DNA from: Escherichia phage vB_vPM_PD06
Sequence record: NC_052653.1
Strand: one strand, 5' to 3'
DNA: 64,000 nucleotides
The notes beneath the pieces were generated by a model. The model ran no database searches. It had not been told where the DNA came from and was given only the letters and a program-made list of their open reading frames with translations. The position numbers were made by a program, and so were the translations under genes. How positions within the stretch are numbered: position 1 is the stretch's first letter; each line of letters opens with the position of its first letter. Of this stretch, positions 13,180-51,797 are shown piece after piece.

Positions 13180-14913
13180 TTAGTCAACCTGGATGGTTCC
13201 CATAGTACGAAGAACCTCTACATCAACACGGTTGCGGATATCAGTGAATGTTTCATCACGACCTTCTACTTGTGGTGTAATAACCTTACCATTCTTGAAG
13301 ATAACTTGTAACTCATTGTCTTCATCCTGGATATCTTTAAAAGAAAGATTATCTACAAGAGAAAGATTACCATTGGTATCATTAACAACCTTAATAAAAC
13401 CTTTTGCAGAGCGTTTACCAGGATCAGTTTTAGGCTCCTTACTTACCAAAATTTCGTGTTCACCGATGATACTACCTGTTGCTTTAACAGCAAAACCAAA
13501 AGTATCTCGTGTATTGAACTGATAAGTATAACTACCAACACCAAATACAATATTGGAAGCTGCAAAACCTTTCTTCTTCAGTCGGCGTAAGATCTCGTGT
13601 TCTCGTTCAACAGTAATAGAATCACCATAAATCATACCGATATGCTGATCAAGAACCTTGTAGCCTTTTCGGTTGATAGTACCACCAAACACTTCCCAAA
13701 GGATTTGAATAGAACCTACTGCTTCACAATAAGGAATCTCATAAGTTTCATCAATACAGTCAGCAACACTGCAATCCTGAAGAACATTGTAATACTTATT
13801 AACATCAGCCAAATGAACTACTTCAGTGGCTGTCGCAATACCATTATTTAAGAGGTCTTGATAGTTATCAAAAGATTCAACATTGTATCCTGCAACAACT
13901 TTAACCGGATCTCCTGAATCTGGACGAATAACAAGACGACCATTTCGTGACATAATGGAATCTTTCAATTCTACCAGAATGCGAGTCAATACAGCCCAAT
14001 AGTCATAAGAGTCTGCTACATATGAACAAAAACCTTCTGGAACAATTTCTTCGATATAACGACGAAGAAACTCTTTTTCTGCTACATAACGAAGCCCATC
14101 TACATCATCTTTAAGATGTGGGAAATGTTTCTTCAGATCTTCAACAATAGATCCAATGTTAGTCGTTGCTACTGAATGTTCTGTTGCCGGAATCGAACCT
14201 GCAACAAACTGATCATAATCAATACCATAATAGTCATGCACAGTTTCAATAGCCAGAATATTATCTGTTCCTGTGAACGATGCCAAGTGAGCGATACCAC
14301 TCTTATAACCATCTTCGATATTACTTAAACCACGTAGGCTAAAATCATGACACTGGAAGTTAACGTGATCAATATTATCACACGTTGCCATCGCATATGC
14401 CATAGCGATACGCTTATACTGAAAAGCTGCTGTGGCATTAGTCATTGTCTTCCAAGTTTCATCTGACAACAGTGTTTCCACATAGTTAGTTAACCAAAAG
14501 AATTTTTCTAAAGTATTATGCACAGTAAACACAGGAACACCAATAGGACACAAAACACCTTCTGGCAGAGATCGAACTTCCAGCGGAAGATAACCTAAAT
14601 CGTGCAATTCTCCCCAACATTCCGCAGAAGGAGCAGAAGCACCTAACGCATTTTTAGACATACGATAAAATTTATTTACTGCTGCACTACGAGACATTTT
14701 AAAGAAGCTATCCCACATAGTTACAAGAGCATCAGTGACTGCTCGACGAATACCTAAAACAATCACACCACGTGCTTCACGATCTGCATAGTGTGCAAAG
14801 TTTTTATCATTACGAGGAGTTAAATTAGAGAAAATAAGTTTTGTATTTTGGTTGTACATCTGCTTGTGACCAGGTTTGTACCAATCAGTAGCAAAAGGTG
14901 CAAAAATATTCAT
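13180..14913 (-). CDS. nadV: Nicotinamide phosphoribosyltransferase (NAMPT)
   Basis: 577 aa; N-terminal MNIFAPFATDWYKPGHKQMY and overall length typical of NAMPT family. Confidence 0.85.
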   Translation of the reverse strand: MNIFAPFATDWYKPGHKQMYNQNTKLIFSNLTPRNDKNFAHYADREARGVIVLGIRRAVTDALVTMWDSFFKMSRSAAVNKFYRMSKNALGASAPSAECWGELHDLGYLPLEVRSLPEGVLCPIGVPVFTVHNTLEKFFWLTNYVETLLSDETWKTMTNATAAFQYKRIAMAYAMATCDNIDHVNFQCHDFSLRGLSNIEDGYKSGIAHLASFTGTDNILAIETVHDYYGIDYDQFVAGSIPATEHSVATTNIGSIVEDLKKHFPHLKDDVDGLRYVAEKEFLRRYIEEIVPEGFCSYVADSYDYWAVLTRILVELKDSIMSRNGRLVIRPDSGDPVKVVAGYNVESFDNYQDLLNNGIATATEVVHLADVNKYYNVLQDCSVADCIDETYEIPYCEAVGSIQILWEVFGGTINRKGYKVLDQHIGMIYGDSITVEREHEILRRLKKKGFAASNIVFGVGSYTYQFNTRDTFGFAVKATGSIIGEHEILVSKEPKTDPGKRSAKGFIKVVNDTNGNLSLVDNLSFKDIQDEDNELQVIFKNGKVITPQVEGRDETFTDIRNRVDVEVLRTMGTIQVD

Positions 14914-14984
14914 AGTTATGTCTCCTTGTTTGTTAATGTGGGAGTATCTTACTAAGCATACTCCCTATTGTCAACACTTATTAT

Positions 14985-15878
14985 TTAAAAATTCCACACG
15001 TATGGAGATACAATTTGTTGTTGCAAATCTGACTGATTCTTAACAAGAACACCAGAATCTTCTTGGATGTTATCTTCCCACACATTAAGAGAATGAATGC
15101 AGTCAAAGTGCTCACTTAACTCTTTAAGACCTTTAGAAAAGATACCGTGTGTAACATATAGCTCAATCTTACCTGCGTTACGAGCACGTAGCACTTTAGC
15201 CAATTCGATAAAAGTTCTACCACCATCACAGATATCATCTACGATCATCAGGTTACGCTTATTGAAATCCTGTACAGAAATGTCTGTACGAACAATAGCA
15301 CCTGTTGCGGTATCTCTAACCTTCTCTGCACAGAACACATCTAAAGACATTTTCTTAGATAATTTAAATATTTTCTTAAGAGCACCACCATCAGGGCTAA
15401 CAAGAGCAAAATTCTCCATACGTAACTTCCACTTTAAAGTTTCGTAAGCAATCTCTTCTTGAGGCATTACACAGAGTCTGTCAAACACTGCTGGAGTAAC
15501 ATCACTATGCGGATCAGCAACGATAACACGTGAGAAATTTAATGAATTAATTATAGAAGCAAATGCTTTAACTCCGAATGCTTCCCCAGGCTCACACACT
15601 CTGTCTTGTCGTGCATACGGCACATACAACATGAGTAAATCAACACAATATGGTTTATGATATAGCATATTGTCCAATGCATTCTTAGTCATAACCAAAG
15701 TCATCAAGTCTTTAGCAGATCTTACTTCTAAAGTGAGTAAGATTCTGTCTGTAGCATGATTGAAACCTGATAGATTCGTATCTAATTGAACATGTTGTTC
15801 TCCACCAGAGAATGTAAACACTTTAACGTCTACATCAGTAACATAACAGTCAACACCATGCAGAATACTAACTTTCAT
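14985..15878 (-). CDS. prs: Ribose-phosphate pyrophosphokinase (PRPP synthetase)-like
   Basis: YARQDR motif, SPDGG, and PRPP-binding loop MIVDDICDGGRT. Confidence 0.8.
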   Translation of the reverse strand: MKVSILHGVDCYVTDVDVKVFTFSGGEQHVQLDTNLSGFNHATDRILLTLEVRSAKDLMTLVMTKNALDNMLYHKPYCVDLLMLYVPYARQDRVCEPGEAFGVKAFASIINSLNFSRVIVADPHSDVTPAVFDRLCVMPQEEIAYETLKWKLRMENFALVSPDGGALKKIFKLSKKMSLDVFCAEKVRDTATGAIVRTDISVQDFNKRNLMIVDDICDGGRTFIELAKVLRARNAGKIELYVTHGIFSKGLKELSEHFDCIHSLNVWEDNIQEDSGVLVKNQSDLQQQIVSPYVWNF

Positions 15879-18421: not shown

Positions 18422-18781
18422 ATGTGCGCTACTAATCAACATGATATTTGTTACCAACCTCTTACTTGGATTGGTGAGGATCACTATGCTCAACGTGTTA
18501 TAGTCTGCGCTGCGAATAAGTATATTCTCAACAATGGCGAAGAGTTAATTATTCCTTGTGTTAGGCATGCAAATCCTGTACTATCTGCACAACTTAATGT
18601 TTTAAAAGATGCAGGATTGATCGATAAACTGTTTTGCTTACCTGATAATCAAGGGTTTATTGATCAATATTATAATTGGTGGAGTCGCAAAGATGCTTAT
18701 ATCATTGCAGATAACGCCAAACAAATTAACTATGAAAGAAATGGTCACGACAGTGAACTATTCAGCGAGGGATTATACTAA
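18422..18781 (+). CDS. Hypothetical protein
   Basis: ATG at 18422 (MCATNQHD...), about 119 aa. Confidence 0.45.
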   Translation: MCATNQHDICYQPLTWIGEDHYAQRVIVCAANKYILNNGEELIIPCVRHANPVLSAQLNVLKDAGLIDKLFCLPDNQGFIDQYYNWWSRKDAYIIADNAKQINYERNGHDSELFSEGLY

Positions 18782-19332
18782 TGTTTATTACAAGTGATTT
18801 GCATTTTATGCACAAACGTATTCGAGAGTTTGCTCCTGAATATCGCCCGTGGGAAGATATGGAGCATATGACAGAAGCACTGATTGAAGCATGGAATAAA
18901 TGTGCTACGAGTCCTGGTGTCAAGATGTGGCATTTGGGCGACTTCTGTTTCGGGACTGAAGAAGATACCCGTAAAATTGCTTCACGTCTTCAAGGTGATA
19001 TCACTTACTGTGTTGGGAACCATGATTACAGCAAACACCGAGAAGTGCTTGCAGAATATGGCGAGGTGGTGTATTATGACGAAGTGAAATATCAGAAACT
19101 GTTCTTCGTCTTAAGTCATTACCCTATGGCTGCTTGGAATAAACAAGGGCATGGATCAATCATGCTACACGGGCACTCTCACGGATCATTCCCTGATCAT
19201 TTGTATGGGAAAATGTTGGATGTTGGTTGGGATGCACACGGAAAAATCTTGCATTTTGACGAAATCATCTCTATTATGGATAAGCGTGATATTGTTGTTG
19301 TAGACCATCATAAGATAATCAAAGGAGATTAA
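18781..19332 (+). CDS. Calcineurin-like metallophosphoesterase
   Basis: Motifs SDLHFMH, GDFCFG, GNHD, then His-rich HGHSHG. Confidence 0.7.
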   Translation: MFITSDLHFMHKRIREFAPEYRPWEDMEHMTEALIEAWNKCATSPGVKMWHLGDFCFGTEEDTRKIASRLQGDITYCVGNHDYSKHREVLAEYGEVVYYDEVKYQKLFFVLSHYPMAAWNKQGHGSIMLHGHSHGSFPDHLYGKMLDVGWDAHGKILHFDEIISIMDKRDIVVVDHHKIIKGD

Positions 19333-19333
19333 G

Positions 19334-20266
19334 GTGGCTAAGTTCAATTGTGATGACCTGATTGCAAAAGGTTTAGTGCATAAAAAAGAAGTTAAATCTG
19401 GAGAGTATGCTGGTCTTGCTGTACTTAAATACAAAAACAATGTATTCTGGGATAACTTGTGGAACGTTGACAAACGACTCCTAGATTGTCGTGGGTTGGT
19501 TGTTGACTCAGAAGACAATGTTGTTATCTGGCCTTTTACTAAAATCTTTAATCGTTTTGAGAATGGTACAGATCTTCCAGCAGACCAGCTTGTAGATGCT
19601 GTCCGTAAAGTAAACGGTTTTATGGCATCTGTAGGTGTGTACAAAGGGCAACTTATTGTATCAACAACAGGGAGCCTAGAGTCAGATTTTGCAACTCTTG
19701 CCAAGAACCATATTGTTTCCGAGTGTGATGACATAGAATATTTCATTAAGTGGACAGAAAGTGCAAAAGCAACTTTCCTTTTTGAAATCTGTGATCCTTC
19801 TGATCCACATATTGTCGAAGAAGAACCAGGCGCATACTTAATTGGAGCAAGAATTCAAAATCTTGATGGGACAAGTTTCATGCTACCCGAAGGTGTGCTT
19901 GATGGGATTGCATCTATTACAAAATTTAAACGTCCTGAAGTTTATCCGATGATTAAATTTTCAGATGTTGTTGAAATGTCTAAACATTGTAAGCACGAAG
20001 GGTTTGTTGTTCGGGAAACAAACTATCCGTTTAACTTGCTGTTAAAGATTAAGTCACCATATTATCTTGCTAAGAAATTCCTTATGCGTGGTGGCAATAA
20101 GAAGTGGGATATGATTTGGGACAACCCAAAAAATGCTAAACAAATTGTTGACGAAGAATATTATACTTTGCTAGAATGGCTTCGAAACAACTTTACTAAG
20201 ACTCAATGGGCTGCTTTAGATCCACAAGAGCGACGTAAAGAAATAGAAAACTTCTTTGGAGGCTAA
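19334..20266 (+). CDS. Polynucleotide ligase, RNA-ligase-like
   Basis: Nucleotidyltransferase motifs: I VRKVNGF (KxNG), IV HEGFVVRE, V LLKIKSPYY; GTG start with GGAG upstream. Confidence 0.6.
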   Translation: MAKFNCDDLIAKGLVHKKEVKSGEYAGLAVLKYKNNVFWDNLWNVDKRLLDCRGLVVDSEDNVVIWPFTKIFNRFENGTDLPADQLVDAVRKVNGFMASVGVYKGQLIVSTTGSLESDFATLAKNHIVSECDDIEYFIKWTESAKATFLFEICDPSDPHIVEEEPGAYLIGARIQNLDGTSFMLPEGVLDGIASITKFKRPEVYPMIKFSDVVEMSKHCKHEGFVVRETNYPFNLLLKIKSPYYLAKKFLMRGGNKKWDMIWDNPKNAKQIVDEEYYTLLEWLRNNFTKTQWAALDPQERRKEIENFFGG

Positions 20267-20671
20267 ATGAAACAACTTATCATTTTACGTGGTGTTTCAG
20301 GTGCAGGTAAATCTACAGTAGCAGAAATTATTTCTGAAGGTTATTGGCCTATCTGTGAGGCAGATCAATATCATTACACAGAAAGTGGTGTTTACGATTG
20401 GAAGCCAGAGAATGTAGGTAAAGCACACGCATGGTGTCAGAGTATTGTTCGTGATGCTATGGTATCTAATATTAAAAAGATTATTGTCTCTAACACTTCA
20501 ACCACAGAGAAAGAACTTAAACCTTATTTAACTCTTGCTGAAGAGTTTGGTTATCAAGTTATCTCCTTAGTTGTTGAAAATAGGCACGGTAACGACTCAA
20601 TTCATGAGGTTCCACAACATACTCGTGATCAGCAAGAGAAACGTCTTCGCAGTTCACTTAAGCTACAATAA
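20267..20671 (+). CDS. P-loop kinase, polynucleotide-kinase-like
   Basis: Walker A GVSGAGKST near N-terminus; 134 aa; start abuts ligase stop. Confidence 0.6.
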   Translation: MKQLIILRGVSGAGKSTVAEIISEGYWPICEADQYHYTESGVYDWKPENVGKAHAWCQSIVRDAMVSNIKKIIVSNTSTTEKELKPYLTLAEEFGYQVISLVVENRHGNDSIHEVPQHTRDQQEKRLRSSLKLQ

Positions 20672-43567: not shown

Positions 43568-44230
43568 ATGAAGTTTGTACTGTATCATCGACTTTCTAAG
43601 AAGAAACAACAAGGCAACCAGTATGGTATAGAATCACAGGAAGCAGATATCCAACGCTTCCTGGATTCACAAGAAAACTATACTATTGTAGGTAGCTTTG
43701 CAGAGTTTTATTCTGGTAAAGGCGATTGGAAGCAACGTAGAGAGCTTGTAAAAGCTGTTAATCTTTGCAAAGAAACAGGTGCTACACTTGTTGTTGCTAA
43801 GGTTGACCGTCTTGGACGTAACACAGCTTCTGTTGCAACCTTGTTAGAGATGATTAATGTACGGATAGCAACTATGCCCTCCGCTGAAAATATGATAATA
43901 AATATTTTAGCAGTTCTGGCAGAAGAAGAGGCTCGTGCAATATCTGATCGTGTTAAGAAGAGCCTTAAGGTAGCAAAAGCGAAGGGAACGCTTCTTGGTG
44001 CAGCAAACCCTAAATACAAAAGAACAGATTATACGAAAACGGAAGAAGCAAAACGCTCAAAAGAGTTTGCGCTTTCTTTAAAAGATTCTTTAGTTGCATA
44101 CAGAGCTTGTAAAACGCCATATATGACGATTGCAAAGCATCTGAATGAATCAGGAAAGAGAACTATTCGTGGGAGTTTGTTCGATGCCAAAGCGGTACAA
44201 CGTCTTTGTGCAAAATTGAATATTAAATAA
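43568..44230 (+). CDS. Serine recombinase (resolvase/invertase family)
   Basis: Catalytic region YHRLSKKKQQGNQYGIESQ, LVVAKVDRLGRN, C-terminal HTH-like tail; 220 aa. Confidence 0.75.
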   Translation: MKFVLYHRLSKKKQQGNQYGIESQEADIQRFLDSQENYTIVGSFAEFYSGKGDWKQRRELVKAVNLCKETGATLVVAKVDRLGRNTASVATLLEMINVRIATMPSAENMIINILAVLAEEEARAISDRVKKSLKVAKAKGTLLGAANPKYKRTDYTKTEEAKRSKEFALSLKDSLVAYRACKTPYMTIAKHLNESGKRTIRGSLFDAKAVQRLCAKLNIK

Positions 44231-44454: not shown

Positions 44455-45027
44455 ATGCGTTTAGCTTTTAACGGGAAGATAAGCACAGCAAACATATTGT
44501 CAGCAGTAGGATTATTAGGTAAAAAATTTACACCTTTCAGTTTACCAGTTTGTGTAGATTTTGATCATGTGTTCGATATTAATAATCCTTCACGTTGTAT
44601 CGCCAGAAGTAATATTGATAACCCAAGTGAAAATCTGTTTTATATTACTAAACCATCCCAGGCAATTTTGAATCAATGGGAAGCAGGTCTGATTAAACCA
44701 GGTAAATATTTTGCATTACTACCTTGTAAATCATTGGCTATAGAGGACAGTCTAAACTATGCAAACAATCTTGTTGTTACAGCATTCATTGTCTCAGAAA
44801 AAGAAGAAACTGCGGCACTTGCAAATACTGTTAAATCTTTGTATGATGCTTTGGGTGTTACTTACACTACATTCGTTTGTGAAGATATTCCACATTGCGT
44901 TGAATTTGTAGTAAATGGTGTAACTGTATGTCGTGTAGAAACAACGCAAGATGAGGACGTTTTTATTACTGTAGCCGATGTAATATCTGAACCTGTGTTT
45001 AGTTACGCAGTTTCATTAACACATTAA
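44455..45027 (+). CDS. Hypothetical protein
   Basis: 190-aa ORF. Confidence 0.5.
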   Translation: MRLAFNGKISTANILSAVGLLGKKFTPFSLPVCVDFDHVFDINNPSRCIARSNIDNPSENLFYITKPSQAILNQWEAGLIKPGKYFALLPCKSLAIEDSLNYANNLVVTAFIVSEKEETAALANTVKSLYDALGVTYTTFVCEDIPHCVEFVVNGVTVCRVETTQDEDVFITVADVISEPVFSYAVSLTH

Positions 45028-45037
45028 GGAGAAGGGG

Positions 45038-45364
45038 ATGAAAATAACGACAGAACAGGCTTTAATAGACAAAGGAAGGGAAATCTTAGAAAGTCATTTG
45101 GAGGATATTCAAAGGACTCCAGGGTATCTCGGCTGGCGTATACAAGAAGCCGTCGATTTTCTACCCCGCAAAAATAAAGAGATTGAGGTAAGATCTCTAT
45201 TCCTCCTTGTTAAAGTAGATGGTGACGCTATATATAAAGATGTAGCGTCTCACATTGAACAAATAGAAGAAAAAGCCTACAAAGAATTTGCAGATCTTGT
45301 TGTAGAACATAATATAGAAGGTAAAGTTAATATCTTTATACTTATGGATTTTGAGGAGATTTGA
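45038..45364 (+). CDS. Hypothetical protein
   Basis: 108-aa ORF. Confidence 0.45.
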   Translation: MKITTEQALIDKGREILESHLEDIQRTPGYLGWRIQEAVDFLPRKNKEIEVRSLFLLVKVDGDAIYKDVASHIEQIEEKAYKEFADLVVEHNIEGKVNIFILMDFEEI

Positions 45365-46107
45365 TGCTAGTATATCAAGAAATTAGTGTAAAAGATGATC
45401 AAGACCTGTTTATTATTGGTGATTTACATGGTTGCTTTGATTTATACCAGAAAGGTGTTAATACTTTAGGTATCCGAGATCAAGATGTTGTTGTATCTTT
45501 AGGAGATCTTACAGATCGCGGCAAGCAGAATTTTCGTTGTACCGTTGAATTCACCAGAAAACTAAATCGCTATGCTATTCGTGGAAATCACGAAGATATG
45601 ATGATTAAAGGGTTGCTAGAAGGTGATAGGCGATATTACGAATGTTGGTTTCAGAACGGAGGCCATACAGTTCTAAACGAGTGTGGAGAAGAAGGTGCAA
45701 CTGCTCTTGCTTTGATGCTAGAAGACTTACCTGTTGTACTTGTTGTCAATTATCGTAATATGAAACTAGGCTTTATTCACGGTGGATATCCTTCAGTTTT
45801 GGAACATTTACCAGTGACAGAAGTTTTGCCATTTTGTTTGAATATGGATAAAGAGCAAGTTTCTCGATTCACAGAATCTTTAATGTGGGATCGTGATATG
45901 ATAGATTGCGCACTTGAAGGGATTCTTCTTCCTAGAGTTTCAGGAGTAGATTATGTATTTCACGGGCATTCTTATGTTCCTAAACCTGTAATTAGCAGTA
46001 ATAGGGTATATATGGATACTGGGTCTGTGTTCAATGGTAATTTAACCTTTGCATATTTTGATGATTCAAATACGTTACAATTTTATTCTACTTTAGAGGA
46101 GGACTAA
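45364..46107 (+). CDS. Ser/Thr protein phosphatase-type metallophosphatase
   Basis: GDLHGCFD, GDLTDRG, RGNHE motifs. Confidence 0.7.
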   Translation: MLVYQEISVKDDQDLFIIGDLHGCFDLYQKGVNTLGIRDQDVVVSLGDLTDRGKQNFRCTVEFTRKLNRYAIRGNHEDMMIKGLLEGDRRYYECWFQNGGHTVLNECGEEGATALALMLEDLPVVLVVNYRNMKLGFIHGGYPSVLEHLPVTEVLPFCLNMDKEQVSRFTESLMWDRDMIDCALEGILLPRVSGVDYVFHGHSYVPKPVISSNRVYMDTGSVFNGNLTFAYFDDSNTLQFYSTLEED

Positions 46108-46415
46108 TGTATAAAGTCACAATTAAAGAGACGGTAGGGAATATTACGAAAGAAACTACTATTGAAACGGAAGACGTTGAGTTAGTCAAAGAGCTTTTAT
46201 TTCCAAAATCAGAAATAAAAGATAATGACGAACAGTTGGATGAAGATAACGATACAGCAAGGGATAAATGGAAGAAACAACTAGCGGAGATTTGGAAAAA
46301 GCCTCAAGTAACGCCTCCATTTGATCCTCGTACACCTTATAACCCTTGGGAAATTGGAAGCCCTTGGTATACGTATCCTATTAATCCAATTGTTACTCCC
46401 AGTATTACTTGTTAA
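46107..46415 (+). CDS. Hypothetical protein
   Basis: 102-aa ORF. Confidence 0.4.
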   Translation: MYKVTIKETVGNITKETTIETEDVELVKELLFPKSEIKDNDEQLDEDNDTARDKWKKQLAEIWKKPQVTPPFDPRTPYNPWEIGSPWYTYPINPIVTPSITC

Positions 46416-46425
46416 GGAGAAAACC

Positions 46426-47004
46426 ATGAGCGATTTATTCTACACAGGTGTTGGTAGCAGAGATATTACAGACGAAGAATGGGACACTATGGTAGCTGTT
46501 GCAAAATGGTTATCTACATGGTTCATTTTGCGATCTGGTAAAGCAGAAGGTGCAGATTCCGCATTTGAATGCGGGGTATATGATAGTGGAAATAATACAA
46601 AGAAAGAAATATACATTCCTTGGCCTTCGTTTAAAGGTAATGAGATAGAGGGAGAGGTTATTGTTCTTGACAGACCAGATAGTGTAAACTATGCTCTAAC
46701 CTTGCAATATGCAAAAGAATTGCATCCGGCTTGGGACAGATTATCTCAAGGTGCTAAAAAATTACATCAAAGGAATATCCACCAAGTTCTTGGCAAAGAT
46801 CTTGAGAATCCAAAACCGTCTTGTTTTCTTTTAGCTTGTGCAAATACAGATAAAAATGGAGATCCTTTGGGTGGTACAAGAACAGCTTGGATGTTGGCTA
46901 AAAAGTTTAATGTTCCTTGTTTTAATATTCGAGGTAAAAGTAAAAAACAAATCTTTGAATTTATTAAACCTATTTTAGAGGAGAATGGTCTTGTCCAGAA
47001 ATAA
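46426..47004 (+). CDS. DprA/Smf-like (SLOG superfamily) protein, tentative
   Basis: ATG at 46426 with AAGGAG upstream; YTGVGSRD and RSGKAEGADSAFECG resemble DprA/LOG nucleotide-binding motifs. Confidence 0.4.
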   Translation: MSDLFYTGVGSRDITDEEWDTMVAVAKWLSTWFILRSGKAEGADSAFECGVYDSGNNTKKEIYIPWPSFKGNEIEGEVIVLDRPDSVNYALTLQYAKELHPAWDRLSQGAKKLHQRNIHQVLGKDLENPKPSCFLLACANTDKNGDPLGGTRTAWMLAKKFNVPCFNIRGKSKKQIFEFIKPILEENGLVQK

Positions 47005-47763: not shown

Positions 47764-47767
47764 TATA

Positions 47768-47790
47768 AACCCGCTTCGGCGGGTTTTTTG
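47768..47790 (+). terminator. Rho-independent terminator
   Basis: AAACCCGC-TTCG-GCGGGTTT followed by TTTTG. Confidence 0.8.
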
Positions 47791-47846
47791 TTGACAACAC
47801 CAGTTTTTTTCGAATAAACTACACAAAAACAGAAGAGGAGATTAGC

Positions 47847-49984: not shown

Positions 49985-50001
49985 TCCGTAAAACTTAACC
50001 A

Positions 50002-50026
50002 AAGCCCCAAGCAGGGGCTTTATTTG
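50002..50026 (+). terminator. Rho-independent terminator
   Basis: AAGCCCC-AAGC-AGGGGCTT followed by TATTTG. Confidence 0.65.
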
Positions 50027-50580: not shown

Positions 50581-51393
50581 ATGCGAAGAGTAATTTTTGT
50601 TAGTGGCGCAGGTTTAAGTGCAGACAGTGGGATTCGAACGTTCCGAACAGACACAGATAGTGGTCGTGCCTTATGGGAAGAATATGACTTAGAAGAGGTC
50701 TGCGATATTGGAGCTTTCCAAGCAGGTTATCGTGTGAGAACATCTCCAGATCTTCCAGTGGTCGGTGGTGTAGACGAGAACGGTATGGACTTATATGCCA
50801 AAACACACGAATTTTATAACAAAAGACGTGTTGAGCTTAAAGATGTACAACCTAATGCTGCACATATTCAAATAGCAAAGTGGTTTAAGGAATATCCTAA
50901 CCAAGTAGTAAACTTGACAACAAACGTCGATGATCTACTAGAGCGAGCAGGTGTGGACAGGGATTCTGTTATTCACGTGCACGGGTATCTCCCTGAAGTA
51001 GTTTACCGTATGCATCCTGGAGATTACAAAACACTGGTAGACATTGGTTACAATAGTATAAACATAGATGATTATAACTGGGTGAAGCCTAATGTTGTAT
51101 TTTTTGGTGAGGCTGCACCTTTGTATGCAGATATGGCTCACTTGTTTGATACTTTGACCATGCAAGATTTGGTTGTTGTAGTAGGATGTTCAAACCAAGT
51201 TATCAATTTTAATTGGGAATTATTCCCTGCACTTACTATGGGTACAAAAATGATTGTTGTTAACCCAGGAATTAATTACGAAGAAACTCTTCTTTACGAA
51301 GATAGAGGAGTCTTTGTTTATAGAGAAAAGGCAGCAGATGCTTTTAGCAATCCTGCTTTCATAAAAATGATAGAAGATCATTTGACTAAGTAA
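50581..51393 (+). CDS. Sir2 (sirtuin) family NAD+-dependent enzyme
   Basis: VIFVSGAGLSADSGIRTFR, TTNVDDLLERAG, HVHG, VVFFGE, VVVVGCS; no CxxC zinc module seen. Confidence 0.8.
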   Translation: MRRVIFVSGAGLSADSGIRTFRTDTDSGRALWEEYDLEEVCDIGAFQAGYRVRTSPDLPVVGGVDENGMDLYAKTHEFYNKRRVELKDVQPNAAHIQIAKWFKEYPNQVVNLTTNVDDLLERAGVDRDSVIHVHGYLPEVVYRMHPGDYKTLVDIGYNSINIDDYNWVKPNVVFFGEAAPLYADMAHLFDTLTMQDLVVVVGCSNQVINFNWELFPALTMGTKMIVVNPGINYEETLLYEDRGVFVYREKAADAFSNPAFIKMIEDHLTK

Positions 51394-51760: not shown

Positions 51761-51797
51761 AAAAGCCCCTAGAAGTGATTCTAGGGGCTTTATTTTA
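51761..51797. terminator. Bidirectional rho-independent terminator between convergent blocks
   Basis: AGCCCCTAG-AAGTGATT-CTAGGGGCT flanked by A-run upstream and T-run downstream. Confidence 0.7.

What the first reader, a model, noticed from the sequence alone, without database searches (positions are those of the whole stretch)
45364..46107. Ser/Thr phosphatase-type metallophosphatase, a second calcineurin-fold enzyme separate from the RNA-repair cassette
GDLHG, GDLTDRG and RGNHE motifs place it in the protein phosphatase family. It could reverse host kinase-based defence signalling or hydrolyse nucleotide second messengers.
Basis: partly seen in the sequence, partly recalled or inferred. Interest (0 to 1): 0.4.

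Follow-up and report, generated by a model that had tools for sequence, protein, structure and literature searches.

The report
Lambda-type protein phosphatase gene in coliphage
This is an intact gene for a lambda-phosphatase-type metal-dependent phosphatase in a phi92/PHB05-like E. coli phage; public records already annotate it this way, so it is ordinary, and its role during infection is still unknown.

Summary
Window 45364-46107 (+) is a 247-aa ORF with a GAGGAG ribosome-binding site. It carries GDLHG (19-23), GDLTDRG (47-53) and RGNHE (73-77).

It matches PHROG 246, "NinI-like serine-threonine phosphatase", over its full length (E 1.7e-76). Its best solved relative is lambda phosphatase 1G5B (sequence E 3e-30; fold TM 0.85-0.87, rmsd 2.5 A, from a model with pLDDT 95.7). 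Every lambda-phosphatase metal ligand and phosphate-binding residue is invariant in 29 homologues: D20, H22, D48, R52, N75, H76, H139, R177, H202, D218.

The window is a Justusliebigvirus (99.9% identical to phage vB_vPM_PD114). About 50 near-identical genomes already annotate this gene as a Ser/Thr phosphatase. Homologues occur in 1,329 of 50,697 phage records, including T5-likes, lambda NinI and P1 Ppp.

A separate RNA-repair cassette (18781-20671) holds a different metallophosphoesterase without the active-site arginine, so "second calcineurin-fold enzyme" is also correct.

The anti-defence and second-messenger ideas are untested. Nothing in gene context, PADLOC or the literature supports them specifically. 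Verdict: real, correctly read, already known, low interest.

The parts
45364..46107 (+). CDS, 247 aa plus stop: lambda-phosphatase-type (PPP / PrpA-PrpB / NinI clade) binuclear metallophosphatase
45353..45358 (+). GAGGAG Shine-Dalgarno, 5 nt before the ATG. It lies inside the 3' end of the upstream ORF, whose TGA stop overlaps the ATG by 1 nt (TGATG).
   Evidence: (sequence read directly)
45418..45432 (+). Motif I GDLHG (residues 19-23). D20 and H22 correspond to lambda D20 and H22 (metal ligands).
45502..45522 (+). Motif II GDLTDRG (residues 47-53). D48 corresponds to lambda D49 (bridging metal ligand). R52 corresponds to lambda R53 (phosphate-binding arginine needed for monoesterase activity).
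45580..45594 (+). Motif III RGNHE (residues 73-77). N75 corresponds to lambda N75 (metal ligand). H76 corresponds to lambda H76 (phosphate-contacting, general-acid histidine).
45778..45780 (+). H139 codon, corresponding to lambda H139 (metal ligand)
45793..45885 (+). Insertion relative to lambda phosphatase and P1 Ppp (about residues 144-174). It is modelled as two helices and is shared, in longer form, with T5-like and jumbo-phage homologues. It may be a substrate-selecting lid; that is inference.
45892..45894 (+). R177 codon, corresponding to lambda R162 (second phosphate-binding arginine), in the invariant W-x-R
45967..45969 (+). H202 codon (GHS), corresponding to lambda H186 (metal ligand)
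45038..45364 (+). Upstream 108-aa ORF of unknown function (PHROG 15398). Its stop overlaps the phosphatase start. It is conserved only within Stephanstirmvirinae and is not a family-wide partner.
46107..46415 (+). Downstream 102-aa ORF of unknown function (PHROG 15301). Its start overlaps the phosphatase stop by 1 nt.
47767..47786 (+). GC-rich hairpin followed by a T-run: the likely intrinsic terminator closing the polycistronic unit that contains the phosphatase

Best explanation
The gene encodes a catalytically intact, stand-alone, lambda-phosphatase-type binuclear (Mn2+-type) metallophosphatase. It is transcribed with neighbouring accessory genes in the large rightward early/middle block of a Justusliebigvirus genome. 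By homology, two metal ions are held by D20, H22, D48, N75, H139 and H202, and they activate a bridging water or hydroxide that attacks the phosphorus. R52 and R177 hold the phosphate, and H76 protonates the leaving group. The intact arginine pair marks it as a phosphomonoesterase. Its most likely substrates are phospho-Ser/Thr/Tyr (and His) side chains of host or phage proteins in the infected cell, with broad specificity as in lambda phosphatase. It is most likely a dispensable accessory function that resets host phosphorylation-dependent stress or defence signalling. SHOWN here: the ORF, the motifs, a complete catalytic residue set, the fold, family membership, conservation and purifying selection. 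INFERRED: metal dependence, protein substrates, expression timing, dispensability and physiological role.
For: Family: PHROG 246 E 1.7e-76 over the full length. Pfam Metallophos 53 bits against a cut-off of 21.5. The best NCBIfam hits are the PrpA/PrpB protein Ser/Thr phosphatase models with full-length coverage. Lambda phosphatase 1G5B matches at E 3e-30 across residues 3-230. Residues: D20 H22 D48 D51 R52 N75 H76 H139 R177 H202 D218 are invariant in 29 homologues down to 32% identity and align to lambda, P1 Ppp and a T5-like enzyme. Fold: AF2 pLDDT 95.7, pTM 0.93. The best PDB match is 1G5B (TM 0.85-0.87, rmsd 2.5 A), nine orders of magnitude in E-value ahead of the ApaH-like and Pnkp phosphatase structures. 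The best viral match is a phage Ser/Thr phosphatase. The Arg53 equivalent is the determinant of monoesterase activity in this superfamily (PMC2190708), and it is present here. Purifying selection. Context: the ORF is tightly packed and its start and stop overlap same-strand ORFs, with a terminator at 47767-47786. The surrounding block holds nucleotide- and DNA-metabolism genes. Dispensability by analogy: lambda ninI and P1 ppp are non-essential (PMC10695390).
Against: No substrate is known for any phage member in vivo. Bacterial PPP-family enzymes are promiscuous, and one branch consists of Ap4A hydrolases (PMC535813 abstract). Lambda phosphatase itself cleaves bis-pNPP and nucleoside 2',3'-cyclic phosphates (PMC2190708), so family membership does not fix the substrate. 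The protein scores far below the equivalog cut-offs for E. coli PrpA and PrpB (100 and 85 bits against 326 and 332), so their function cannot be transferred directly. The insertion at about residues 144-174, absent from lambda phosphatase, could change specificity. Expression timing rests on gene order only.
Confidence: 0.6

Rival explanations
1. The physiological substrate is a nucleotide or an RNA end rather than a protein. Candidates are 2',3'-cyclic phosphate or 3'-phosphate RNA termini (backing up the phage RNA-repair cassette against host anticodon nucleases), Np4N or Ap4A alarmones and caps (ApaH-like), or nucleotide immune messengers.
For: Lambda phosphatase hydrolyses bis-pNPP and nucleoside 2',3'-cyclic phosphates (PMC2190708). 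The next-best structural matches are an ApaH-like Ap4A hydrolase (2QJC) and the CthPnkp 2',3'-phosphatase domain (4J6O). Weak N-terminal hits to ApaH, PrpE and Pnkp models appear. H76, a determinant of cyclic phosphodiesterase activity, is conserved. The phage invests in RNA repair and NAD+ salvage, which shows pressure from nucleotide- and RNA-targeting defences.
Against: Similarity to ApaH, PrpE and Pnkp covers only motifs I-II (residues 15-84, 28-38 bits, far below cut-offs), whereas the PrpA/PrpB and lambda matches are full length. The gene lies about 26 kb from the RNA-repair cassette, which has its own phosphoesterase. No neighbour points to nucleotide signalling, and there are no PADLOC hits. 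The cyclic phosphodiesterase activity of lambda phosphatase is an in vitro side activity.
Confidence: 0.25
2. It dephosphorylates ADPR-1''-phosphate made by RES-domain (aRES) NAD+ phosphorylases, feeding ADPR to the phage's NARP1-type enzymes. It would be a non-Macro analogue of Adpp.
For: The window carries a NARP1-type pair: a Prs-like gene at 14985-15878 and an NAPRTase-family gene at 13180-14913. Phages with NARP1 need a phosphatase to beat aRES (bioRxiv 10.64898/2026.01.28.702374). The enzyme has the features of a phosphomonoesterase.
Against: The described Adpp is a Macro-domain (Poa1p-like) protein encoded inside the NARP1 operon. This gene has a different fold, sits about 30 kb away on the other strand, and occurs in lambda, P1 and T5-like phages in quite different gene neighbourhoods. 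I did not check those phages for NARP1 genes.
Confidence: 0.03
3. It is a DNA or RNA nuclease of the Mre11/SbcD/MPE type, like mycobacteriophage A10ZJ24 gp48, which damages host DNA.
For: It belongs to the same superfamily. A phage metallophosphoesterase with anti-defence nuclease activity has been reported (PMC12287305).
Against: Diesterase-only and nuclease members lack the Arg53-equivalent arginine, and here R52 and R177 are invariant. SbcD and Mre11-like viral models match only at TM below 0.45 and E above 1e-5. There is no nuclease capping domain, and the protein is a compact 247-aa lambda-phosphatase fold.
Confidence: 0.03
4. It is a decayed or inactive relic (pseudo-enzyme), or a chance ORF.
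For: None, beyond the dispensability of the lambda and P1 homologues.
Against: All catalytic residues are invariant. There is purifying selection. The gene is conserved across Justusliebigvirus, Phapecoctavirus and more distant large myoviruses. It has a strong SD.
Confidence: 0.01

Closest known systems
Bacteriophage lambda Ser/Thr protein phosphatase (NinI, ORF221; PDB 1G5B)
   Same: Same fold (TM 0.85-0.87, rmsd 2.5 A) and 31-33% identity over the full length. All metal ligands and phosphate-binding residues are the same, and both are single-domain proteins of about 220-250 aa encoded by a phage.
   Different: This protein has an insertion of about 15-25 residues between H139 and the W-x-R motif (residues about 144-174, two predicted helices) and a C-terminal extension of about 15 residues. 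It is encoded by a virulent 150-kb myovirus in an early/middle accessory block, not in the nin region of a temperate siphovirus.
T5-like (Demerecviridae) and jumbo-phage Ser/Thr phosphatases, all members of PHROG 246
   Same: 31-39% identity, the same catalytic residues, and an insertion at the same position. All are in virulent enterobacterial phages.
   Different: The T5-like enzyme is longer (287 aa) with further insertions. The immediate neighbours are unrelated. None has a demonstrated in vivo role in the literature I could search.
E. coli PrpA (PphA) and PrpB (PphB) protein phosphatases
   Same: These are the best NCBIfam matches with full-length alignment (E 1.7e-28 and 4.3e-24). They belong to the same PrpA/PrpB/lambda clade.
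   Different: The scores of 100 and 85 bits are far below the equivalog cut-offs of 326 and 332, so it is not an orthologue. The cellular roles of PrpA and PrpB cannot be transferred.
The phage's own RNA-repair-cassette phosphoesterase (window 18781-19332)
   Same: Calcineurin-like metallophosphoesterase superfamily, with D-x-H, GD and GNH(D/E) motifs.
   Different: It is 183 aa, its motif II is GDFCFG without the DRG arginine, and motif III is GNHD. It is fused in an operon with an Rnl1-type RNA ligase and a P-loop kinase. It matches only Metallophos_2, below threshold. By the Arg53 rule it looks like a diesterase or end-healing type rather than a protein phosphatase.
ApaH/PrpE Ap4A hydrolases and the CthPnkp phosphatase module
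   Same: Same superfamily, shared motifs I-III, and the next-best structures (2QJC, 4J6O).
   Different: Only the N-terminal 70 residues or so align by sequence, at 20-38 bits against cut-offs of 176-750. TM is 0.62-0.69 and rmsd above 4 A.

Membership tests
Lambda-phosphatase / PrpA-PrpB clade of PPP-type metallophosphatases (PHROG 246) | Motif I GDxHG, supplying Asp and His metal ligands (lambda D20, H22) | tested here: met
   GDLHG at residues 19-23. D20 and H22 are invariant in 29 homologues and align to lambda.
Lambda-phosphatase / PrpA-PrpB clade of PPP-type metallophosphatases (PHROG 246) | Motif II GDxxDRG, with the bridging Asp and the phosphate-binding Arg (lambda D49, R53) | tested here: met
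   GDLTDRG at residues 47-53. D48, D51, R52 and G53 are invariant. The Arg is required for monoesterase activity.
Lambda-phosphatase / PrpA-PrpB clade of PPP-type metallophosphatases (PHROG 246) | Motif III GNHE (lambda N75 ligand, H76 general acid) | tested here: met
   RGNHE at residues 73-77. G74, N75 and H76 are invariant, and E77 is at least 90% conserved.
Lambda-phosphatase / PrpA-PrpB clade of PPP-type metallophosphatases (PHROG 246) | Distal ligands and second Arg (lambda H139, R162, H186, D202) | tested here: met
   H139, R177, H202 and D218 are invariant and aligned.
Lambda-phosphatase / PrpA-PrpB clade of PPP-type metallophosphatases (PHROG 246) | Full-length profile match and lambda-phosphatase fold | tested here: met
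   PHROG 246 E 1.7e-76 over residues 1-243. 1G5B is the top structural match at TM 0.85-0.87, using a model with pLDDT 95.7.
Lambda-phosphatase / PrpA-PrpB clade of PPP-type metallophosphatases (PHROG 246) | Mn2+-dependent hydrolysis of phospho-Ser/Thr/Tyr proteins and pNPP | not testable with these tools
   Needs a biochemical assay.
E. coli PrpA / PrpB equivalogs (NCBIfam NF008516, NF007425) | Score at or above the curated equivalog cut-off | tested here: not met
   100.2 and 85.4 bits against cut-offs of 326 and 332. It is a relative, not an orthologue.
ApaH / PrpE bis(5'-nucleosyl)-tetraphosphatases | Full-length match above the model cut-off | tested here: not met
   20-38 bits, residues 16-79 only, against cut-offs of 176-340. 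2QJC has TM 0.62-0.69 and rmsd 4.4 A.
Bacterial Pnkp (kinase-phosphatase-ligase) RNA repair enzyme | Phosphatase module fused to a 5'-kinase and a ligase, scoring above the cut-off | tested here: not met
   28.5 bits against 750, and a single-domain 247-aa protein. The phage's kinase and ligase lie about 26 kb away with their own phosphoesterase.
Diesterase-only or nuclease metallophosphoesterases (Mre11/SbcD, MJ0936, Rv0805, MPE) | Active site without the Arg53-equivalent arginine; for nucleases, an extra capping domain | tested here: not met
   R52 and R177 are present and invariant. The rule comes from PMC2190708. There is no extra domain, and SbcD-like viral models match poorly.
Adpp, the ADPR-1''-P phosphatase of NARP1-AP | Macro (Poa1p-like) domain encoded within the NARP1 operon | tested here: not met
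   The fold is a metallophosphatase, not Macro. The gene is about 30 kb from the NARP1-type genes and on the opposite strand.

The most novel reading that the evidence does not exclude
The lambda-type phosphatases of virulent enterobacterial phages (this clade, T5-likes, jumbo phages) share the insertion at about residues 144-174. They could be dedicated counter-defence enzymes. They might erase the phosphorylation marks written by host kinase-based abortive-infection or toxin systems, or remove a phosphate from a small-molecule product of immunity, for example ADPR-1''-P or a phosphorylated nucleotide signal. That would finally give a biological role to a protein family known since 1989 only as a laboratory reagent.
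Probability: 0.12. Interest if true: 0.6.

Novelty: already known. Interest (0 to 1): 0.12.

Why it matters
As it stands it matters little. The gene is a correctly recognisable member of a very common phage protein family, present in about 2.6% of phage records, and GenBank already annotates it as such in near-identical genomes. The residual interest is general rather than specific to this locus: no in vivo substrate or fitness role has been established for lambda-type phage phosphatases, although lambda phosphatase is a standard reagent. The homologues of virulent phages, kept under purifying selection in 150-kb genomes rich in counter-defence functions (RNA repair, NARP1-type NAD+ salvage, methyltransferases), are reasonable candidates for a counter-defence screen.

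Tried and rejected
1. I tested whether the small ORFs that overlap the phosphatase start and stop are conserved partner or regulatory subunits. They are unrelated to the ORF in the equivalent position in a T5-like phage (E 0.033 and 2.0). Neighbours also differ in the jumbo phage and in relatives at 42-48% identity. Rejected: overlapping stops and starts are just dense phage packing.

2. Neighbourhood as a functional clue. The 'DprA-like' gene stays 1-4 genes downstream in distant large myoviruses. This is lineage synteny and is absent in the lambda, P1, T5-like and jumbo-phage loci examined. The 'DprA-like' and 'histidyl-tRNA synthetase' neighbours have no Pfam or PDB support, so they add nothing.

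3. PADLOC defence models for the phosphatase and seven neighbours gave no hits.

4. Literature for an in vivo role. The HIDEN-SEQ essentiality preprint does not mention phosphatases or this phage group. The T7 kinase paper uses phosphatases only as reagents. The 'phage phosphatases' that counter aRES are Macro-domain proteins. The mycobacteriophage gp48 phosphoesterase is an MPE-type nuclease. The 'NinI-like' full-text hits are only genome annotations.

5. dN/dS against the 76%-identical Phapecoctavirus orthologue could not be computed because synonymous sites are saturated.

6. Two tool calls failed on wrong coordinates and one on search syntax. They were repeated correctly where needed.

Full report
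OBSERVATION

The window has an open reading frame at 45361..46107 on the + strand. A GAGGAG Shine-Dalgarno lies at 45353-45358, 5 nt upstream. The ATG overlaps the TGA of the upstream ORF by one base (read directly). Related GenBank records annotate the same 744-nt CDS.

A six-frame scan of the 64-kb window for this motif combination found it only here.

WHAT THE WINDOW IS

A 3.2-kb stretch around the gene is 99.9% identical to Escherichia phage vB_vPM_PD114 and 97-99% identical to about 50 other genomes. The RefSeq and BASEL representatives, PHB05 and PaulScherrer, are classified as Stephanstirmvirinae, Justusliebigvirus. In nearly all of those records this CDS is already named "(putative) serine/threonine protein phosphatase", "NinI-like serine-threonine phosphatase" or "putative phosphatase".

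FAMILY ASSIGNMENT

- Pfam Metallophos scores 53 bits against a cut-off of 21.5.
- PHROG 246, "NinI-like serine-threonine phosphatase", matches residues 1-243 with E 1.7e-76.
- The best NCBIfam models are the E. coli PrpA and PrpB protein Ser/Thr phosphatases, with full-length alignments. The scores of 100 and 85 bits are far below their equivalog cut-offs of 326 and 332, so the protein is a relative and not an orthologue.
- Hits to ApaH, PrpE and Pnkp models cover only residues 15-84 and are weak.
- Among solved structures the best sequence match is lambda phosphatase 1G5B, E 3e-30 over residues 3-230.

In an alignment of the window protein with 28 homologues (76% down to 32% identity), the invariant columns include D20, H22, D48, D51, R52, N75, H76, H139, R177, H202 and D218. 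A second alignment with lambda phosphatase, a lambdoid NinI, P1 Ppp, a T5-like enzyme and two distant homologues maps these onto lambda D20, H22, D49, D52, R53, N75, H76, H139, R162, H186 and D202. Nothing is missing.

The conserved arginine of motif II discriminates function. In this superfamily it is needed for phosphomonoesterase activity, and diesterase-only members such as MJ0936, Mre11 and Rv0805 lack it (PMC2190708).

STRUCTURE

AlphaFold2 with the 29-sequence alignment gave pLDDT 95.7 and pTM 0.93. Foldseek against the PDB ranks 1G5B first (E 2e-20, TM 0.85-0.87 on the target, rmsd 2.5 A). An ApaH-like putative Ap4A hydrolase (2QJC), the CthPnkp phosphatase domain (4J6O) and PP1/PP2A catalytic subunits follow at E around 1e-10 to 1e-11. 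Against viral models the best match is a phage "serine/threonine protein phosphatase", while SbcD and Mre11-like models match poorly.

Relative to lambda phosphatase and P1 Ppp there is an insertion between H139 and the W-x-R motif (about residues 144-174, two predicted helices) and a short C-terminal extension. T5-like and jumbo-phage homologues have an insertion at the same place.

DISTRIBUTION AND SELECTION

tblastn finds homologues in 1,329 of 50,697 phage records: 53 at 95% identity or more, 77 at 60-80%, and the rest below 60%. They include T5-like Demerecviridae, lambdoid NinI, P1 Ppp, jumbo phages and many Vibrio, Salmonella and Klebsiella phages. The metagenome protein search returns a graded series from 99% to 34% identity, mostly on contigs of 135-157 kb.

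Among close relatives the gene is under purifying selection. dN/dS is 0.16 against PaulScherrer. Against PHB05 there are no amino-acid changes while dS is 0.046. Synonymous sites are saturated against the 76%-identical Phapecoctavirus orthologue.

CONTEXT

The gene lies in the long rightward block (about 16-52 kb of the window by GC skew). This block carries nucleotide- and DNA-metabolism and accessory genes: NrdAB, thymidylate synthase, ligase, exonucleases, PhoH, an HslV-like peptidase, methyltransferases and Sir2.

Locally the order is: resolvase (43568-44230), small ORF, a 190-aa protein that PHROGs labels "histidyl tRNA synthetase", a 108-aa ORF, the phosphatase, a 102-aa ORF, a "DprA-like" protein, and two more ORFs. 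Gaps are 0-12 nt or the ORFs overlap. A strong hairpin with a T-run at 47767-47786 closes the unit. The module is conserved in Phapecoctavirus.

In relatives at 42-48% identity the gene sits in the same broad region (PhoH, HslV/proteasome-like, resolvase, Sir2), and the DprA-like gene stays a few genes downstream. The immediate neighbours differ, however. In the T5-like, jumbo, lambdoid and P1 phages the context is unrelated. The gene therefore behaves as an independent cassette, and its neighbourhood gives no functional clue. No PADLOC model matches it or its neighbours.

THE "SECOND CALCINEURIN-FOLD ENZYME" CLAIM

The window does contain an RNA-repair cassette:
- 18781-19332, a 183-aa phosphoesterase (Metallophos_2-like, E 1e-4);
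- 19334-20266, an RNA_lig_T4_1 ligase;
- 20267-20671, a P-loop AAA_33 kinase.

Its phosphoesterase has motif II as GDFCFG, without the DRG arginine, and motif III as GNHD. It is a different subfamily, consistent with an end-healing diesterase type.

MECHANISM

The catalytic machinery is shown to be complete. By homology with lambda phosphatase, two divalent metals bound by D20, H22, D48, N75, H139 and H202 activate a bridging water. R52 and R177 bind the phosphate, and H76 acts on the leaving group.

What it dephosphorylates in the infected cell is inferred. The full-length similarity to lambda phosphatase and PrpA/PrpB, together with the intact arginine pair, makes a broad-specificity protein phosphomonoesterase the best guess (about 0.6).

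The main rival (about 0.25) is a nucleotide or RNA-end substrate. [quoted passage not shown] Bacterial PPP-family enzymes are promiscuous, and one branch consists of Ap4A hydrolases (PMC535813).

A role as the ADPR-1''-P phosphatase that lets NARP1 overcome aRES is attractive, because this phage carries a NARP1-type gene pair. However, the described enzyme is a Macro-domain protein inside the NARP1 operon, and this gene is a different fold about 30 kb away. I rate that about 0.03.

An MPE-type nuclease like mycobacteriophage gp48 is disfavoured by the active-site arginines and by the fold ranking.

By analogy with lambda ninI and P1 ppp, which are non-essential in CRISPRi and classical studies (PMC10695390), the gene is probably dispensable in laboratory hosts.

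LITERATURE

I found no paper that demonstrates an in vivo substrate or counter-defence role for a lambda-type phage phosphatase. The library searched is limited to open-access papers and bioRxiv.

VERDICT

The finding is real and correctly interpreted at the family level. It is an already annotated member of a very common phage protein family. The functional speculations are neither supported nor excluded. Novelty: already known. Interest: low (0.12). The most novel reading still open is that the lambda-type phosphatases of virulent phages are counter-defence enzymes. I give it about 0.12 probability, and it would be of moderate-to-high interest if shown.

Noticed in passing
window 13180-15878 (- strand): A NARP1-type NAD+ reconstitution gene pair: a Prs-like pyrophosphokinase (14985-15878; Pribosyltran and Pribosyl_synth) and a 577-aa NAPRTase-family protein (13180-14913). 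PHB05 annotates them as ribose-phosphate pyrophosphokinase and nicotinamide phosphoribosyl transferase. No Macro-domain Adpp gene is evident next to them.
   Followed up: partly
window 18781-20671 (+): An RNA-repair cassette: a 183-aa metallophosphoesterase without the active-site arginine, an Rnl1-type RNA ligase and a 134-aa P-loop kinase, back to back. It presumably counters host anticodon nucleases.
   Followed up: partly
window 50581-51393 (+): A phage-encoded Sir2-family protein (Pfam SIR2, E 1e-22). The preceding ORF is annotated 'putative aminoacyl-tRNA synthetase' in PaulScherrer. A Sir2 gene also lies in the same region of a distant relative (L012).
   Followed up: no
window 43568-44230 (+): A serine recombinase/resolvase gene (Pfam Resolvase, E 8e-22) in a virulent myovirus. 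It is conserved near the phosphatase in distant relatives (L009, L010, L012) but absent at this position in Phapecoctavirus ETEC-TG. Its target and role are unknown.
   Followed up: partly
window 44455-45027 (+) and 46426-47004 (+): The PHROG labels 'histidyl tRNA synthetase' (190 aa) and 'DprA-like DNA recombination-mediator' (192 aa) have no Pfam or PDB sequence support. The labels look unreliable. The DprA-like gene is conserved (48-59% identity) a few genes downstream of the phosphatase in distant large myoviruses.
   Followed up: partly
L001 7536-10800 and L002 3539-6800 (roughly window 35.9-39.2 kb): The phage carries a four-gene set resembling dTDP-L-rhamnose synthesis (RmlB/A/C/D-like). 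This suggests a sugar-nucleotide pathway, for DNA or surface modification.
   Followed up: no
one search hit list (e.g. MG065639.1): Four records named 'Campylobacter phage', with host given as C. jejuni, are about 97% identical to these E. coli Justusliebigviruses. This may be mislabelling or contamination in the source records.
   Followed up: no
L005 2983-3846 and 4358-4747 (phage TrudiRoth): The T5-like phage has a full-length 287-aa phosphatase and, 0.5 kb downstream, a second 129-aa CDS also annotated as serine/threonine phosphatase. It may be a fragment or a split gene. BFVD likewise shows fragmentary phosphatase ORFs in phage VAH1.
   Followed up: no
window 47767-47820: A perfect bidirectional GC-rich hairpin (AAACCCGCTTCGGCGGGTTT) is followed at once by a TTGACA/TAAACT promoter-like site. 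It looks like a terminator-promoter junction between transcription units. Similar hairpins lie at 50001-50021 and 51762-51791.
   Followed up: no
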